From: Thermotogota bacterium ADurb.Bin062
GTDB lineage: Bacteria; Thermotogota; Thermotogae; MWEM01
Direction: 5' to 3'
NCBI GenBank assembly: GCA_002071085.1
Contig: MWEM01000006.1
Location: 10,198-74,197, forward strand
Length of the DNA: 64,000 nucleotides
The translations under genes and the position numbers were made by a program. Positions within the stretch are counted from its first letter, which is position 1; each line of letters opens with the position of its first letter. Of the stretch, positions 13,288-63,417 are shown one piece after another. The notes beneath the pieces were generated by a model. The model was not told the origin of the DNA. It did no database searches and saw nothing but the letters and a program-made list of their open reading frames with translations.

Positions 13288-13445
13288 ACGAAATCGTGCA
13301 GCGCTTTCTTTTTGCAAAGCGTTATATTATAATACGAAAAAGGCAAAACGAGACTTTGAGTGTGGATATACTATCGAGGTGCGGCAAAAAAGATTAGAGG
13401 AGGAAGCTCGCCTTTTACTCTTTTTTCCGCTACGATGAGCCGCGG

Positions 13446-13737
13446 GGTTATCGCGGGGTAAGTGGTTTTTACGACCCCGCGATCCGCCCTACGCCCTTTT
13501 CAAATGCGTATCGCGCCGTCGCGAAAAGAAGGGGCGCTTACGCCGCGATGCTCTCGTGGGTTATCGCGGGGTAAGTGGTTTTTACGACCCCGCGATCCGC
13601 CCTTTGCCCTTCTCAAAAGCGTATCGCGCCGTTGCGAAAAGAATGGGCGCTTACGCCGCGATGACAAAATGGACAAAAAATCACGCGATCGATTCTGGCC
13701 TTGTTTCTTGACTACACCTTATAACTTGACACACACG
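13446..13737 (+). repeat. Mosaic repeat array A (X-Y-X-Y-Z)
   Basis: 113-bp tandem unit twice (X hairpin 13450-13483 and 13563-13596; Y 13506-13550 and 13619-13663), then Z module ~13670-13737. Confidence 0.92.
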
Positions 13738-33983: not shown

Positions 33984-34188
33984 ATCGCGGGGTAACCAGC
34001 AGGCTGGCTTCTTGTGTGTTATCGCGGGGTAAGTGGTTTTCAAGACCCCGCGACCCGCCCCTTCTTAAAAGCGTATCGCGCCGTCGCTAAAAGAAGGAGC
34101 GCTTACGCCGCGATGACCTCACGGACTAAAAATCGCGCGGCCGATTCCGGCCTTGTTTCTTGAGCGCACTCCATAACTTCTCACACAC
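33984..34188 (+). repeat. Mosaic repeat array B (partial W-X-Y-Z)
   Basis: Partial W 33984-34012, X 34021-34053, Y 34071-34115, Z ~34122-34188. Confidence 0.9.
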
Positions 34189-35132: not shown

Positions 35133-35227
35133 GGATATCCCTCCAGAAGAAAGTCTCATCGTATCATACCTCAAAGGCGGGATTTCCAAAAAGAAAAAGC
35201 GTCTCCGCCTTTTTTTCTTTCTCAAAA

Positions 35228-35600
35228 GCGTATCGCGGGCGTCGCGAAAAGCAAAAGCGCTTACGCCGCGATGCTGCCTTCGAGAATGCTCCCAGTGAAA
35301 AGGAAAAACCTGCCAAACTAAAGTTTGGCGTTCCCAGGGCGTTCACAAGTATCTTTTCACAGTGTTTTCTGTGCCCTCCGTGCGAATTCTGTTTTTAGAT
35401 ATGCCAACTTTAAAGTTGGCGTTCCCAGAAATTCTGCCGAACTGAAGTTCGGCGTTCCAAGACGTCCCCTGAGAAAGGCCGACTGGAAGTCGGCCCCACG
35501 AAGAGAAGGGGCGCTTACGCCGCGATGACTACATAGACTAAAAACCCCGCGGCCGATTCTAACCTTGTTTCTTGATTACACCCCATAACTTGACACACAC
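35228..35600 (+). repeat. Mosaic repeat array C (Y-V-U-V-V-T/Y-tail-Z)
   Basis: Y 35228-35273; V 35312-35337, 35403-35428, 35436-35460; U ~35365-35395; T 35477-35499; TACGCCGCGATG seam to 35527; Z ~35535-35600. Confidence 0.9.
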
Positions 35601-52874: not shown

Positions 52875-52951
52875 TGGAGCAGGAGATGGGACTCGAACCC
52901 ATAACCTCCGCCTTACCAAGGCGGCGCTCTACCGATTGAAGCTACTCCTGC
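52875..52951 (-). tRNA. tRNA-Thr (GGT), CCA encoded
   Basis: GCAGGAG acceptor stem, CCGCC-TTGGTAA-GGCGG anticodon arm, TTCGAGTCC T loop, 3' CTCCTGCTCCA. Confidence 0.97.
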
Positions 52952-53078: not shown

Positions 53079-53608
53079 GTGCGTGTCAAGTTATGAGGTG
53101 CCATCAAGAAACAAGGCCAGAATCGATCGTGCGATTTGTAGTCCATGCGCAGCATCACGGCGTAAAAAAGACAAAAGGAGGATCGCGAGACTTCGTGAGT
53201 TTCCGAAGTCAGCCCGTTGGCTTCCTCGCGATGAGCCTCACACGGTTATCGCGGCGTAAGCGCTTCTTCTTTTCGCGACGGCGCGATACGTTTTTGTACA
53301 GGTTCTGAAAAATAGGGTTCGCACGGAGGGCACAGAGAACACAGAGAAAAGATTTTTGGAAACGCCTGGAAACGCCAAACTTTAGTTTGGCATGGTTAAA
53401 AAAAAGAGAAAGGCACCAGAGCGGGTCGCGAGACTTCGTGAACTTCCGAAGTCAGCCCTCTGGTTACCCCGCGATAACCTCATACGGGCATCGCGGCGTA
53501 AAAAAGAAAAAAGGAAGATCGCGAGACTTCGTGATCTTCCTAAGTCAGCCCGCTGGCTACCCAGCAATGAACCTCTTAGTTAAGTCACCCCATAACTTGG
53601 CCCACACC
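53079..53608 (-). repeat. Mosaic repeat array E (Z, W, Y, U, V, W, W, partial reverse Z)
   Basis: Z(rev) 53079-53145; W 53181-53232, 53425-53475, 53517-53568; Y 53248-53290; U ~53305-53348; V 53367-53391; Z fragment 53585-53608. Confidence 0.92.
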
Positions 53609-53728
53609 ACGTCAATAAACCGACTTGCCTCTTTTTGATAGAATACCGGTCTCGCCCCCGCGCGTTCTCTTCTCAGAAATTTTACCTGCTTCCTGTACAA
53701 TAGGTGTGACAAAAAAAGACGGGAGAAG

Positions 53729-61510: not shown

Positions 61511-61967
61511 CTTGGGAACGCCGCGCTTCAGCGCGGTGTGCCTTGAAAAACAAGGTTCGCACAGAGGGCACAGAGAACACGGAGAGAACAAGCATCGCGG
61601 CGTAAGCGCCTCTTCTCTTCGTGGGGCCGACTTCCAGTCGGCCTGCCTCTCTGGGAACACCTGGGAACGCCAAACTTTAGTTTGGCTTGGTTTCATCTTT
61701 TCATTGGGAGTGTTCCCAAGCCAGCATCGCGGCGTACGCGCCCTTTCTTCTCGCGACGGCGCGATACGCTTTTGTTCTTTATCTTTTCCCTTTTACGAAA
61801 GATCGTATCGCGAGACTTCGTGGGCTTCCGAAGTCAGCCCGCTGGTTACCCCGCGATAACCCCACACGGGCATCGCGGCGTAAGCGCCCCTTCTCTTTGC
61901 GACGGCGCGATACCCTCTTTAGAAGGGCGAAGAAGGGATCGCGGGGTCCCTTCGGTTACCCCGCGAT
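61511..61967 (-). repeat. Mosaic repeat array F (V, U, Y-tail/T, V, Y, W, Y, X)
   Basis: V 61511-61536 and 61661-61686; U ~61545-61588; T 61621-61643; Y 61725-61769 and 61871-61913; W 61807-61857; X variant 61938-61967. Confidence 0.92.
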
Positions 61968-62050
61968 GACCTCCGAGATTCGCTCCACCCTTTTCGGGGA
62001 AAAACACAAAGTCAAAACCAGCAAAAGGTAAAAAGGTAAAAATACAAAAG

Positions 62051-63031
62051 TTAAAAGACCGTCCTGGAAAGGCGAAAGCCGAGGTAGTAGTAGCTGTAAG
62101 TCGGCGTGTAGTAGTACCGACCCGCCGCTCGGCAGTACTGCGCGTTGTGTTTCCAGCTGCCGCCCCGAATCACCCGGTAAGCGCCGAACGCGCCACTACT
62201 CGGCCCTGTCGGGTTTGTTTGCGCGGCGCTTCTGTAATTTCCATACCAGTCGTGACACCATTCCCACACGTTCCCGCTCATATCGTAGAGCCCCAGTTCG
62301 TTCGGTTTCTTCTCGCCTACCGGGTGCGTCTTCTCATCAGAATTGCCGTCGTACCACCCCACTTCGTTTAGGTCGTTGCTTCCTGCGTATTTATACCCCC
62401 TTGAGTTTTGTCCCCCTCGCGCCGCGTATTCCCATTCCGCTTCCGTGGGCAATCGATGCCCTTCTACGTTCGTGATGTCTGTCGTTACCTTTCCGCTCTT
62501 GTCCAGCAAGTTTCCCTGGCTATCGTACGCTTTCTTTATCCCTTCTCTCTCACTCAGCCAGTTGCAGTACCCGATCGCGTCGAACCAACTCACATTCATC
62601 ACCGGCCGCGTCCCGCGGCCCCATTCTTCGTCGCTTGGCTTGCTCTTCCCCGTCGACGCACAGTACGCGTCGCACTCATTGAACGTCACTTCGTACTTCC
62701 CGATCCAGTAGTCGTACGTCAGGGTCACCGTGTGTACCGGCTTTTCTTCGCTGTACTCTTCGCTGTCATTTTCCACATTCCCCATCTGGAAGCTCCCGCC
62801 TTTGACTTTGACCAGAACCGATGTGAACGAAAGAATCGTTTGAAGCTTTCCTTTCGCCTCCAGCAACTGTCGACGGCACTCTTCCGGGTCCGCGCTGCCC
62901 CGCTCTTCGACAATTTTTCCGATGATCCACTGCGTTTCATTAAAGGTGAGCTGCCGCTCCCCTTCACCATTCCACGGTATCCATAACGTCTCTTCGTTTA
63001 TCGCAAGCCTCTTCCTTTTCTTTCTCTTCAT
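62051..63031 (-). CDS. FGE-sulfatase (SUMF1/CLec-fold) domain protein; candidate DGR variable protein
   Basis: GGSFQMG, E.P.H.V, YEVT, PV.NVSW.DA..YC.W, RLPTEAEWEYAARGG, N..GLYDMSGNVWEW, RVIRGGSW, GFR. Confidence 0.92.
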   Translation of the reverse strand: MKRKKRKRLAINEETLWIPWNGEGERQLTFNETQWIIGKIVEERGSADPEECRRQLLEAKGKLQTILSFTSVLVKVKGGSFQMGNVENDSEEYSEEKPVHTVTLTYDYWIGKYEVTFNECDAYCASTGKSKPSDEEWGRGTRPVMNVSWFDAIGYCNWLSEREGIKKAYDSQGNLLDKSGKVTTDITNVEGHRLPTEAEWEYAARGGQNSRGYKYAGSNDLNEVGWYDGNSDEKTHPVGEKKPNELGLYDMSGNVWEWCHDWYGNYRSAAQTNPTGPSSGAFGAYRVIRGGSWKHNAQYCRAAGRYYYTPTYSYYYLGFRLSRTVF

Positions 63032-63060
63032 TTCTCCTCCGATAACAGATTACTCCTCGT

Positions 63061-63417
63061 GGCGTAAGCGCCCCTTCTTTTTGCGACGGCGCGATACGAT
63101 TTTGTTCGATCCTTGTTCCCGTTTTAGTTACTTGCTAATGCACGCTTACTACCAAAGATAGGATCGCAAGACTTCGTGAACTCCCGAAGTCAGCCCGCTG
63201 GTTACCCCGCGATAACCTATAAAGTCCGGCGTTCTCGAGCGCAGCATCGCGGCGTAAGCGCCCCTTCTTTTTGCGACGGCGCGATACGCTTTTGTACACG
63301 TCTTGAAAAACAGGGTTCGCACGGAGGGCACAGAGAACACAGAGGAAAAACTGGCAAACAACAGCATTCTCCCGGAAAAAGAAAAGAAATGCCGGACAAA
63401 AGTCCGGCGCTCCCAAG
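63061..63417 (-). repeat. Mosaic repeat array G (Y, W, Y, U, V variant)
   Basis: Y ~63061-63098 and 63245-63289; W 63162-63213; U ~63303-63345; V variant 63391-63417. Confidence 0.9.

What the first reader, a model, noticed from the sequence alone, without database searches (positions are those of the whole stretch)
62051..62200. DGR-like variable region at the 3' end of the FGE-sulfatase gene, with no RT or template repeat in view
Seen: the C-terminus reads GAFGAYRVIRGGSWKHNAQYCRAAGRYYYTPTYSYYYLGFRLSRTVF. All nine Tyr codons here are TAC, and CAC, AAC, TTC, ATT and GGT occupy the same kind of slot between mostly A-free scaffold codons (GGC GCG CGG GTG TGC CTC CGC). Established: DGRs mutate template adenines, so AAC/AAT codons become NNC/NNT in FGE/CLec-fold targets (e.g. 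Treponema TvpA), and remote targets exist. Inference: predicted template ...GGCGGCAGCTGGAA(C/A)AACAACGCGCAGAACTGCCGAGCGGCGAATCGGAACAACAACACGCCGACTAACAGCAACAACAACCTCGGCTTTCGC... elsewhere in the genome, making this a remote target.
Basis: partly seen in the sequence, partly recalled or inferred. Interest (0 to 1): 0.8.

Follow-up and report, generated by a model that had tools for sequence, protein, structure and literature searches.

The report
Frozen DGR-type variable region, TvpA-like gene
The last 44 codons of this gene carry the clear signature of a diversity-generating retroelement (a reverse-transcriptase system that rewrites a protein's binding site), but the same version recurs in many independent metagenome assemblies and no template or reverse transcriptase was found, so it looks like a quiescent or relic target, not a demonstrably active one.

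Summary
Window 62051-63031 (- strand) encodes a 326-aa FGE-sulfatase-fold protein ending ...GAFGAYRVIRGGSWKHNAQYCRAAGRYYYTPTYSYYYLGFRLSRTVF, with nine TAC Tyr codons.

The call that this is a DGR-type variable region (VR) is well supported:
- The closest solved structure is the Treponema DGR target TvpA (E 4e-37).
- The 14 positions that encode Asn in 106 template-repeat (TR) ORFs from other phyla are the window's odd slots (Y I K H N Y G Y Y Y Y Y Y Y). 18 of 19 conserved non-Asn positions are identical.
- Across eight paralogous VRs of this Thermotogota lineage, 104 of 112 slot codons end in C or T, against 405 of 1040 upstream (p 2e-30).

The "remote target of a DGR elsewhere" part is unproven, and the evidence leans against current activity:
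- No TR or RT was found in the window, in about 330 kb of lineage DNA, or in any collection scan.
- The exact protein is on 81 contigs.
- Every paralog keeps one VR across its cluster members.
- Scaffold codons have drifted synonymously.

Alleles at this locus differ by about 640-nt paralog-derived patches, which are either gene conversion or assembly chimeras. Verdict: a new member of a known kind, of modest interest.

The parts
62051..63031 (-). Gene for a 326-aa TvpA-like variable protein. Residues 1-72 form a lineage-specific N-terminal domain with no signal peptide. Residues 73-321 form the FGE-sulfatase / C-type-lectin fold.
   Evidence: ORF. Pfam PF03781, E 1.1e-55. Best PDB match is 2Y3C, Treponema denticola variable protein 1, E 4.2e-37 over residues 85-322. 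The first catalytic Cys of true FGEs aligns with His295, so it is not expected to be a formylglycine-generating enzyme.
62051..62185 (-). Variable region: codons 283-326 plus the stop codon (GGC GCT TAC CGG GTG ATT ... GTC TTT TAA).
   Evidence: Among three paralogs, variable columns here fall 16/13/5 on codon positions 1/2/3, against 24/31/69 in the 193 codons upstream. The scaffold matches TR-ORF consensus at 18 of 19 conserved non-Asn positions.
62084..62179 (-). Span holding the 14 slot codons: 285 TAC, 288 ATT, 294-296 AAA CAC AAC, 299 TAC, 304 GGT, 306-308 TAC x3, 312 TAC, 314-316 TAC x3.
   Evidence: These 14 positions are the ones that encode Asn in at least 70% of 106 TR-ORFs. 13 of the 14 end in C or T.
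62186..62194 (-). Extra GGC GCG TTC (Gly-Ala-Phe). It is a 9-nt tandem duplication of the following GGC GCT TAC, sits at the 5' edge of the VR, and is present only in this allele.
   Evidence: Alignments.
62021..62043 (-). AT-rich element ATTTTTACCTTTTTACCTTTTGC, 7 nt after the stop codon. It is conserved behind the VRs of paralogs and of sister species. It could be a cis element, or the 3' end of the TR-homologous block.
   Evidence: Exact matches sit behind the FGE genes in L001-L003, L005, L007, L009-L011, L014, L098 and L103, and nowhere else in 125 loci. Downstream alignment.
61546..61971 (.). Copies of a 113-nt REP/MITE-like intergenic repeat downstream of the gene. They include the 10-bp-stem hairpin ATCGCGGGGT..ACCCCGCGAT.
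   Evidence: The same repeat occurs at 13445-13663, about 34.0-35.5 kb and about 53.2-53.6 kb, so it is a genome-wide element and not a DGR-specific hairpin.
63044..63415 (.). Copies of the same intergenic repeat family upstream of the gene.

Best explanation
The gene encodes a TvpA-like ligand-binding protein, not an enzyme. Its C-terminal 44 codons are a genuine DGR-type variable region. At some point a reverse transcriptase copied an AAC/AAT-rich template repeat, randomised the adenines, and wrote the product into this site. That left NNC/NNT codons at 14 slots on an otherwise fixed scaffold. The Tyr-rich outcome (9 TAC) was then presumably selected as a binding surface.

The gene is one of at least eight paralogs in an uncultured Thermotogota bacterium from anaerobic digesters. 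All carry the same scaffold with different slot contents. Some are fused to caspase and PEGA domains.

In present-day populations the VR appears frozen. The DGR is either lost or silent, or it sits in an unsampled part of the genome and acts rarely. The differences seen between assemblies at this locus come from replacement of the 3' two-thirds of the gene by paralog sequence. That is either gene conversion or an assembly chimera, and it is not adenine mutagenesis.

What is shown: the fold, the slot/TR correspondence, the NNY signature, the paralog family, the constancy across assemblies, and the absence of TR and RT in the DNA sampled. What is inferred: past retrohoming, selection for Tyr, and present inactivity.
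For: - **Fold.** Pfam FGE-sulfatase at 1e-55. The best solved relative is the DGR target TvpA (2Y3C, 4e-37), well ahead of true FGEs (about 1e-23, C-terminal half only). The first catalytic Cys is replaced.
- **Slot and TR correspondence.** A search with a predicted TR peptide returned 218 short TR-ORFs (..NRVNRGGSWNNNAQNCRxANRNNNTPxNxNNNLGFR..). All 14 Asn positions coincide with the window's slots, and 18 of 19 conserved non-Asn positions are identical.
- **Codon signature.** Slot codons of 8 paralog VRs end in C or T 104 times of 112, against 405 of 1040 upstream, p 2e-30. Codon positions 1 and 2 dominate the variation in the VR, while position 3 dominates upstream.
- **Family-level picture.** In 20 homologs the scaffold is conserved and the slots are hypervariable.
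- **Frozen state.** The identical protein is on 81 contigs and in 165 index blocks. VR DNA is identical in L001, L002 and L005. Each of three other paralog clusters has an essentially single VR across its listed members, with the few exceptions being strain variants or chimeras, and strain variants differ in the VR no more than elsewhere. Scaffold codons differ synonymously among paralogs, so they have not been re-homogenised recently.
- **No TR or RT found.** Window; lineage loci totalling 330,333 bases; pattern scans gave 0 genome, 0 viral, and 7 lineage VR hits but no lineage TR in metagenomes. The same methods did find true TRs in other organisms (L013, L020, L021, L036, L050, L064, L068).
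- **Mosaic alleles.** L103 has flanks identical over 21 kb, with about 100 mismatches confined to gene nt ~340-970 that carry paralog P0404's VR. Sister species L014 and L098 show the same picture.
Against: - The species' genome could not be searched as a whole. It is not among the GTDB representatives. The metagenome collection did not return even the JGI contig that carries this gene (compare), so absence of a TR there is weak evidence.
- Known cellular DGRs can act on targets more than 100 kb away (Wu et al. 2018, PMC5758913).
- Three VRs (window, and the caspase paralogs of 622 and 930 aa) share a scaffold identical at every synonymous site, plus about 45 nt after the stop. That pattern is expected from fairly recent homing from one TR.
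- Consensus assemblies hide minority variants, and no reads could be examined.
Confidence: 0.55

Rival explanations
1. This is a currently active remote target. A chromosomal DGR (RT, Avd, and a TR like ...TGGAACAACAACGCGCAGAACTGCCGAGCGGCGAATCGGAACAACAAC...) lies elsewhere in the genome and rewrites this and the other paralog VRs in trans.
For: - All the signatures of a DGR VR are present.
- Three paralog VRs share a scaffold identical at synonymous sites, plus a conserved post-stop element.
- Multi-target and remote-target cellular DGRs with FGE-type targets are documented, with Treponema having seven non-adjacent targets (PMC5758913).
- Only a fraction of the genome was sampled.
Against: - The same VR is seen on 81 contigs and in 165 blocks.
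- Each paralog VR is constant across the listed cluster members.
- There is no TR or RT next to any of the eight paralog loci sampled.
- The metagenome scan found 7 lineage VRs and 0 lineage TRs.
- Synonymous drift in the scaffolds of five paralogs argues against recent homing.
Confidence: 0.3
2. The diversity is produced mainly by segmental gene conversion among the FGE paralogs, in a cassette-shuffling manner. The flanking 113-nt repeats and the conserved post-stop element would serve as homology anchors. DGR mutagenesis would play no role in this lineage beyond what was inherited with the ancestral gene.
For: - Alleles at one locus differ by about 640-nt patches that match other paralogs (L103 against P0404).
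- The same pattern appears in a sister species.
- Variants P0002 and P0129 join the window's N-terminus to paralog C-termini.
Against: - Conversion only moves existing VRs. It does not explain why eight VRs differ precisely at the TR-Asn slots with NNY codons.
- The mosaics may be de Bruijn-graph chimeras. The switch back to the window's flank lies inside a 68-nt run shared with the paralog.
Confidence: 0.1
3. Chance or ordinary positive selection. On this view it is a Tyr-rich C-terminus with a TAC codon preference and has no retroelement history.
For: TAC preference is already strong in this gene (12 of 14 upstream Tyr codons) and moderate in the window (62%).
Against: - The position-for-position match to TR Asn positions.
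- The NNY bias, p 2e-30.
- The excess of variation at codon positions 1 and 2 together with a deficit at position 3.
- TvpA being the best structural relative.
Confidence: 0.05

Closest known systems
TvpA of Treponema denticola (PDB 2Y3C), the prototype FGE-type C-type-lectin-fold DGR variable protein
   Same: It is the best solved-structure match (E 4.2e-37, residues 85-322). Both have a C-terminal VR with the ..RV.RGGSW...A..C......P......LGFRL scaffold. Both belong to multi-paralog families, and T. denticola has seven non-adjacent targets (PMC5758913). Neither is expected to have FGE activity.
   Different: Here no cognate TR or RT has been found and the VR is invariant across assemblies. 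The N-terminus is a lineage-specific 72-aa domain with no lipoprotein or signal sequence. The host is Thermotogota. DGRs and Thermotogota are not discussed together in any of the four papers the text search returned.
CLec1/FGE-sulfatase class of DGR targets with remote or non-adjacent targets (Wu et al. 2018, NAR 46:11, PMC5758913)
   Same: An FGE-sulfatase target (19% of surveyed DGRs), alone or fused to signalling or protease domains, with several targets per genome and a TR rich in AAC.
   Different: That class is defined from complete cassettes of RT plus TR plus VR. Here only VRs are in hand. [quoted passage not shown]
Formylglycine-generating enzymes (human SUMF1; bacterial FGEs such as PDB 6MUJ and 2Q17)
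   Same: Same Pfam family (PF03781) and same fold in the C-terminal half (E about 1e-23).
   Different: The first Cys of the catalytic pair (..LCHDSYC.. in 6MUJ) aligns with His295 here (..KHNAQYC..), and a 3-residue segment after the second Cys is missing. The N-terminal half does not align well. The 'FGE-sulfatase gene' label is therefore a fold name, not a function.
FGS/FGE-domain effectors linked to DGRs in caspase, vWA and NTPase conflict systems of multicellular bacteria (Kaur et al. 2020, eLife 9:e52696, PMC7159879)
   Same: Paralogs of the window gene are fused to Peptidase_C14 (caspase) and PEGA domains. One sits beside TPR-CHAT and WD40-caspase genes.
   Different: The window gene itself has no such fusion, and its neighbours are housekeeping genes (FGGY kinase, methyltransferase, PolC). 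No DGR cassette was seen beside the fused paralogs.

Membership tests
DGR variable protein (TvpA-like CLec/FGE fold with C-terminal VR) | C-type-lectin/FGE fold with the VR at the extreme C-terminus | tested here: met
   PF03781 at 1.1e-55 over residues 73-321. TvpA (2Y3C) is the best PDB match at 4.2e-37.
DGR variable protein (TvpA-like CLec/FGE fold with C-terminal VR) | Variable positions coincide with the AAY (Asn) codons of template repeats, and the scaffold positions are conserved | tested here: met
   The 14 Asn positions of 106 TR-ORFs coincide with the window's 14 slots. 18 of 19 conserved non-Asn positions are identical. The TRs used come from other phyla, not from this genome.
DGR variable protein (TvpA-like CLec/FGE fold with C-terminal VR) | NNC/NNT codons at variable positions; variation at codon positions 1-2, not 3 | tested here: met
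   104 of 112 slot codons in 8 paralog VRs end in C or T, against 405 of 1040 upstream, p 2e-30. Variable columns fall 16/13/5 on codon positions 1/2/3 in the VR, against 24/31/69 upstream.
Complete, active DGR system | Template repeat differing from the VR only (or mainly) at adenines | tested here: inconclusive
   None was found in the window, in 330 kb of lineage loci, or in genome, viral and metagenome scans. However, the species' full genome was not available.
Complete, active DGR system | DGR-clade reverse transcriptase (and usually Avd) in the same genome | tested here: inconclusive
   The window has no ORF with RT motifs. tblastn with two DGR RTs found no hit at E<0.1 in the window and 24 lineage loci. 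There is no RVT Pfam hit among the called neighbours of the paralogs. None of the top 120 relatives of a DGR RT is labelled Thermotogota. A whole-genome search was not possible.
Complete, active DGR system | IMH at the VR 3' end starting with a GC-rich segment, followed by a GC-rich inverted repeat | tested here: inconclusive
   The VR ends ..CTCGGCTTTCGCCTTTCCAGGACGGTCTTTTAA and is followed by an AT-rich conserved element. The only strong hairpin is about 85 nt downstream and belongs to the genome-wide 113-nt repeat. IMH cannot be defined without the TR, and inverted repeats are reported in only 34% of DGRs.
Complete, active DGR system | VR differs between or within populations while the rest of the gene is constant | tested here: not met
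   At consensus level the identical protein is on 81 contigs and in 165 blocks, and members P0131 and P0132 differ elsewhere but keep the VR. The other paralogs' VRs are essentially constant. Differing alleles are paralog-derived patches of about 640 nt.
Formylglycine-generating enzyme (catalytic FGE) | Pair of catalytic cysteines in the ..C-x4-C.. motif after RGGS | tested here: not met
   In the alignment to FGE 6MUJ, LCHDSYC aligns with KHNAQYC, so the first Cys is replaced by His295.

The most novel reading that the evidence does not exclude
A chromosomal DGR in an uncultured Thermotogota bacterium serves eight or more dispersed targets in trans. These include cytoplasmic proteins and caspase-fused FGE-fold proteins. 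On this reading the DGR recognises them through the conserved AT-rich post-stop element (ATTTTTACCTTTTTACCTTTTGC), not through a GC-rich IMH and hairpin, and it fires only rarely. Each VR would then look fixed in consensus assemblies, while paralog gene conversion adds a second layer of diversification.
Probability: 0.12. Interest if true: 0.6.

Novelty: new member of a known kind. Interest (0 to 1): 0.33.

Why it matters
If the DGR turns out to be present, this would be a multi-target cellular DGR in Thermotogota acting on apparently intracellular and caspase-fused sensor proteins. That would extend the link between DGRs and conflict systems to another phylum.

If the DGR is absent, the family is a clean example of orphaned variable regions. 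Their slots were set by hypermutation, then fixed and reshuffled between paralogs. Such regions would inflate DGR-target counts in surveys that rely on VR-like sequence alone. Either way, the gene should not be annotated as a sulfatase-maturing enzyme.

Tried and rejected
1. TR inside the window. blastn at word sizes 7 returned only the self hit.
2. RT inside the window by motif regex. No credible ORF.
3. Exact scaffold patterns in genome contigs (two versions) and viral contigs returned 0. The single metagenome scan gave 9 hits: 7 lineage VRs, plus one unrelated VR and one unrelated TR+RT (L008, L013), and no lineage TR.
4. Finding the species in the GTDB representatives by the whole protein, by the lineage-specific N-terminal domain, and by the multi-copy intergenic repeat. 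Only distant FGE homologs, two sister MAGs and chance 19-mer hits came back, so the idea of sampling the genome through its repeats failed.
5. Predicted-TR peptide search. It found 218 TR-ORFs; none of the 120 listed carries this lineage's tail ..SRTVF.
6. RT search seeded with the RT next to the most similar TR (L013). 5591 RTs, and none of the top 120 is labelled Thermotogota.
7. Three further viral scans (post-stop element, VR 3' scaffold, TR-type start) returned 0.
8. I first took the cluster variants P0002, P0129 and P0130 for VR alleles. I rejected this because their downstream genes belong to other paralog loci.
9. A DGR-type hairpin after the VR. The only stable stem belongs to the genome-wide 113-nt repeat, and the fold z-score is -1.6.
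10. TAC exclusivity as evidence on its own. It is too weak given the gene's own codon bias.
12. Literature. No paper in the library links DGRs to Thermotogota beyond incidental mentions.

Full report
**What is there**

Window 62051..63031 on the minus strand is a 326-aa ORF. Pfam places residues 73-321 in FGE-sulfatase (PF03781, E 1.1e-55).

Against solved structures the best match by far is the Treponema denticola variable protein TvpA (2Y3C, E 4.2e-37, residues 85-322). TvpA is the prototype FGE-type DGR target. True formylglycine-generating enzymes match only the C-terminal half (about 1e-23). In that alignment the first catalytic cysteine (..LCHDSYC..) is replaced by His295 (..KHNAQYC..). 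The gene is therefore a TvpA-like binding protein, not a sulfatase-maturing enzyme. Residues 1-72 are a lineage-specific domain with no hydrophobic signal sequence.

**Is the codon pattern more than chance?**

TAC exclusivity alone is weak. The window's genes use TAC for 62% of Tyr (P of 9/9 = 0.014), and the upstream part of this gene is already 12 TAC to 2 TAT. Three other tests are strong.

- *Match to real template repeats.* I searched the protein database with a peptide translated from the predicted template. It returned 218 short ORFs that gene callers place over real template repeats, of the form ..NRVNRGGSWNNNAQNCRxANRNNNTPxNxNNNLGFR... In 106 of them that could be put in register, 14 positions encode Asn in at least 70% of cases. 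In the window those 14 positions read Y I K H N Y G Y Y Y Y Y Y Y. Of 19 conserved non-Asn positions, 18 are identical in the window.
- *NNY slot codons.* In eight paralogous VRs of the same lineage, 104 of 112 slot codons end in C or T, against 405 of 1040 codons upstream (Fisher p 2e-30). This is the NNY pattern expected from AAC/AAT templates.
- *Codon-position profile.* Among the window gene and two paralogs, variable columns in the 44 VR codons fall 16/13/5 on codon positions 1/2/3. In the 193 codons upstream they fall 24/31/69.

Twenty homologs show the same picture at protein level, with a conserved scaffold and hypervariable slots. It is part of a 9-nt tandem duplication (GGCGCGTTC|GGCGCTTAC) unique to this allele.

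Nine TAC among 14 slots is far from what even randomisation of both adenines would give (P 2e-8). A Tyr-rich outcome was probably selected; that is inference.

**Organism and gene family**

The contig recurs in anaerobic-digester metagenomes and in NCBI MAGs labelled Thermotogota bacterium. The neighbours are housekeeping genes: FGGY kinase, a methyltransferase, allophanate-hydrolase-like subunits and PolC.

The same species carries at least seven further FGE-fold genes with the same VR scaffold:

| Paralog | Length | Context |
|---|---|---|
| P0390 | 356 aa | membrane-anchored; beside a DEAD_2 helicase |
| P0376 / P0404 | 490 / 501 aa | alleles at a FeoB-side locus |
| truncated fragment | 143 aa | behind IS insertions |
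| caspase-PEGA-FGE proteins | 622 and 930 aa | fused domains |
| P0015 | 341 aa | beside TPR-CHAT and WD40-caspase genes |

**Search for the template and the reverse transcriptase**

- *Window.* Nothing TR-like (blastn word 7) and no RT-motif ORF.
- *Lineage DNA.* I fetched up to about 10 kb on each side of the paralog loci, 330,333 bases of lineage DNA in all. There was no TR-like sequence and no tblastn hit to DGR RTs at E<0.1. No RVT Pfam hit appears among the called neighbours.
- *Pattern scans.* An exact pattern built from the columns invariant in the lineage VRs found nothing in the GTDB species genomes or in IMG/VR. In JGI metagenomes it found nine loci. Seven are VRs of four lineage loci. 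One is an unrelated VR. One (L013) is a genuine TR sitting directly 3' of a DGR RT in an unrelated sediment organism.
- *Positive controls.* The same local blastn picks up true TRs (10-13 AAC codons) in L013, L020, L021, L036, L050, L064 and L068. The methods therefore can see TRs.
- *Further attempts.* Three more viral scans and an RT homology search gave nothing attributable to Thermotogota.

Limits: the species is not among the GTDB representatives. The metagenome collection did not return even the JGI contig that carries this gene (compare). Absence is therefore suggestive, not decisive.

**Is the VR varying now?**

At the level of assembled consensus it is not.

- The exact 326-aa protein is recorded on 81 contigs and in 165 index blocks from JGI, ENA and NCBI.
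- The VR DNA is identical in three independent samples (L001, L002, L005).
- Cluster members that differ elsewhere in the protein (P0131, P0132) keep the same VR.
- The other paralogs behave the same way. Nearly all listed members of each of the 490-, 356- and 501-aa clusters share a single VR. A diverged strain variant of P0390 differs in the VR no more than in the rest of the protein.
- Scaffold codons of five paralogs have accumulated synonymous differences (GCG/GCT/GCC, TGC/TGT, CGG/CGA/CGT). Repeated homing from one TR would erase these.

Against this, the window VR and the two caspase-paralog VRs share a scaffold identical at every synonymous site, plus about 45 nt after the stop. This fits a more recent common rewriting or a gene conversion.

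**What does differ between assemblies**

The MAG contig DAOOII010000019 (L103) has the same locus with flanks identical over 21 kb. About 100 mismatches are confined to gene nt ~340-970, and its VR is that of paralog P0404. Two sister-species contigs (L014, L098) show the same thing: flanks differ by about 0-2 mismatches per 100 nt in most bins, while the 3' two-thirds of the gene differ by 8-26 per 100 nt.

Variants P0002 and P0129 join the window's N-terminus to the C-terminus and downstream genes of other paralog loci.

These are either real segmental gene conversions or de Bruijn-graph chimeras. The switch back to the window's flank in L103 lies within a 68-nt run shared with the paralog, so short-read assembly cannot settle it.

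**Cis elements**

Immediately after the stop codon lies an AT-rich element, ATTTTTACCTTTTTACCTTTTGC (62021-62043, minus strand). It is conserved behind the FGE genes of six of eight paralogs and of the sister species, and it occurs nowhere else in 125 fetched loci. It could be part of the TR-homologous block, a recognition element, or just part of the duplicated unit.

There is no GC-rich IMH-like start. The only strong hairpin downstream belongs to a genome-wide 113-nt intergenic repeat. According to Wu et al. 2018 (PMC5758913), GC-rich inverted repeats are found in only 34% of DGRs, FGE-type targets make up 19% of DGRs, and targets more than 100 kb away occur in non-phage DGRs.

**Conclusion**

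The mechanistic claim that it is a remote target of a DGR elsewhere in the genome remains unverified, and cross-assembly constancy argues against ongoing diversification. My best reading (0.55) is a quiescent or orphaned VR in a multi-paralog family whose present variation comes from paralog exchange. An active remote target remains a serious rival (0.30).

It is a new member of a known kind. Interest is modest unless a multi-target Thermotogota DGR is found.

Noticed in passing
window 13445-13663, ~34018-34175, 35223-35527, 53167-53623, 61546-61971, 63044-63415: A 113-nt REP/MITE-like intergenic repeat with internal hairpins (ATCGCGGGGT..ACCCCGCGAT and ATCGCGCCGTCG..), sometimes in tandem. 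It flanks every FGE paralog locus fetched. It matches no Rfam family, and its 19-mer core is absent from the GTDB species genomes apart from a 1.2-kb misbinned contig (L105).
   Followed up: partly
window 62021-62043 (- strand); L007 5564-5586, L010 3125-3147, L014 6383-6405, L098 10635-10657: A 23-nt AT-rich element, ATTTTTACCTTTTTACCTTTTGC, lies 7 nt after the stop codon. It is conserved behind the VR-bearing FGE genes of paralogs and of a sister species that is only about 72% identical at protein level. Its function is unknown.
   Followed up: partly
L103 10340-10972 against L001; L014 5727-6375 against L098: Alleles at one locus have identical flanks, but the 3' two-thirds of the gene is replaced by sequence of another paralog. 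This is seen in two species. It is either gene conversion or an assembly chimera.
   Followed up: partly
window 62177-62194 (- strand): A 9-nt tandem duplication, GGCGCGTTC|GGCGCTTAC (Gly-Ala-Phe | Gly-Ala-Tyr), at the 5' edge of the VR. It is present only in the window allele and absent from all paralogs.
   Followed up: no
L009 4241-7033, L010 1250-3118, L015 2492-11088: Paralogs of the window gene are fused to Peptidase_C14 (caspase) and PEGA domains. One paralog lies next to TPR-CHAT, a sigma-70-like gene and a WD40-caspase gene, a conflict-system-like neighbourhood.
   Followed up: partly
L130 11657-16936: In some strains a DDE transposase and an IS21-type element (rve + IstB) lie between the 501-aa paralog and a truncated 143-aa FGE fragment that still carries its own VR.
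   Followed up: no
L014 932-5176: In the sister species the orthologous small FGE gene sits directly downstream of the BREX genes PglZ and BrxL.
   Followed up: no
L013 59-2180: An unrelated sediment organism has a DGR RT whose N-terminus is cut off by an IS (two transposase ORFs). A textbook AAC-rich TR overlaps the 3' end of the RT ORF.
   Followed up: no
window 52878-52951 (- strand): The only Rfam hit at gathering threshold in the whole window is a tRNA gene.
   Followed up: no
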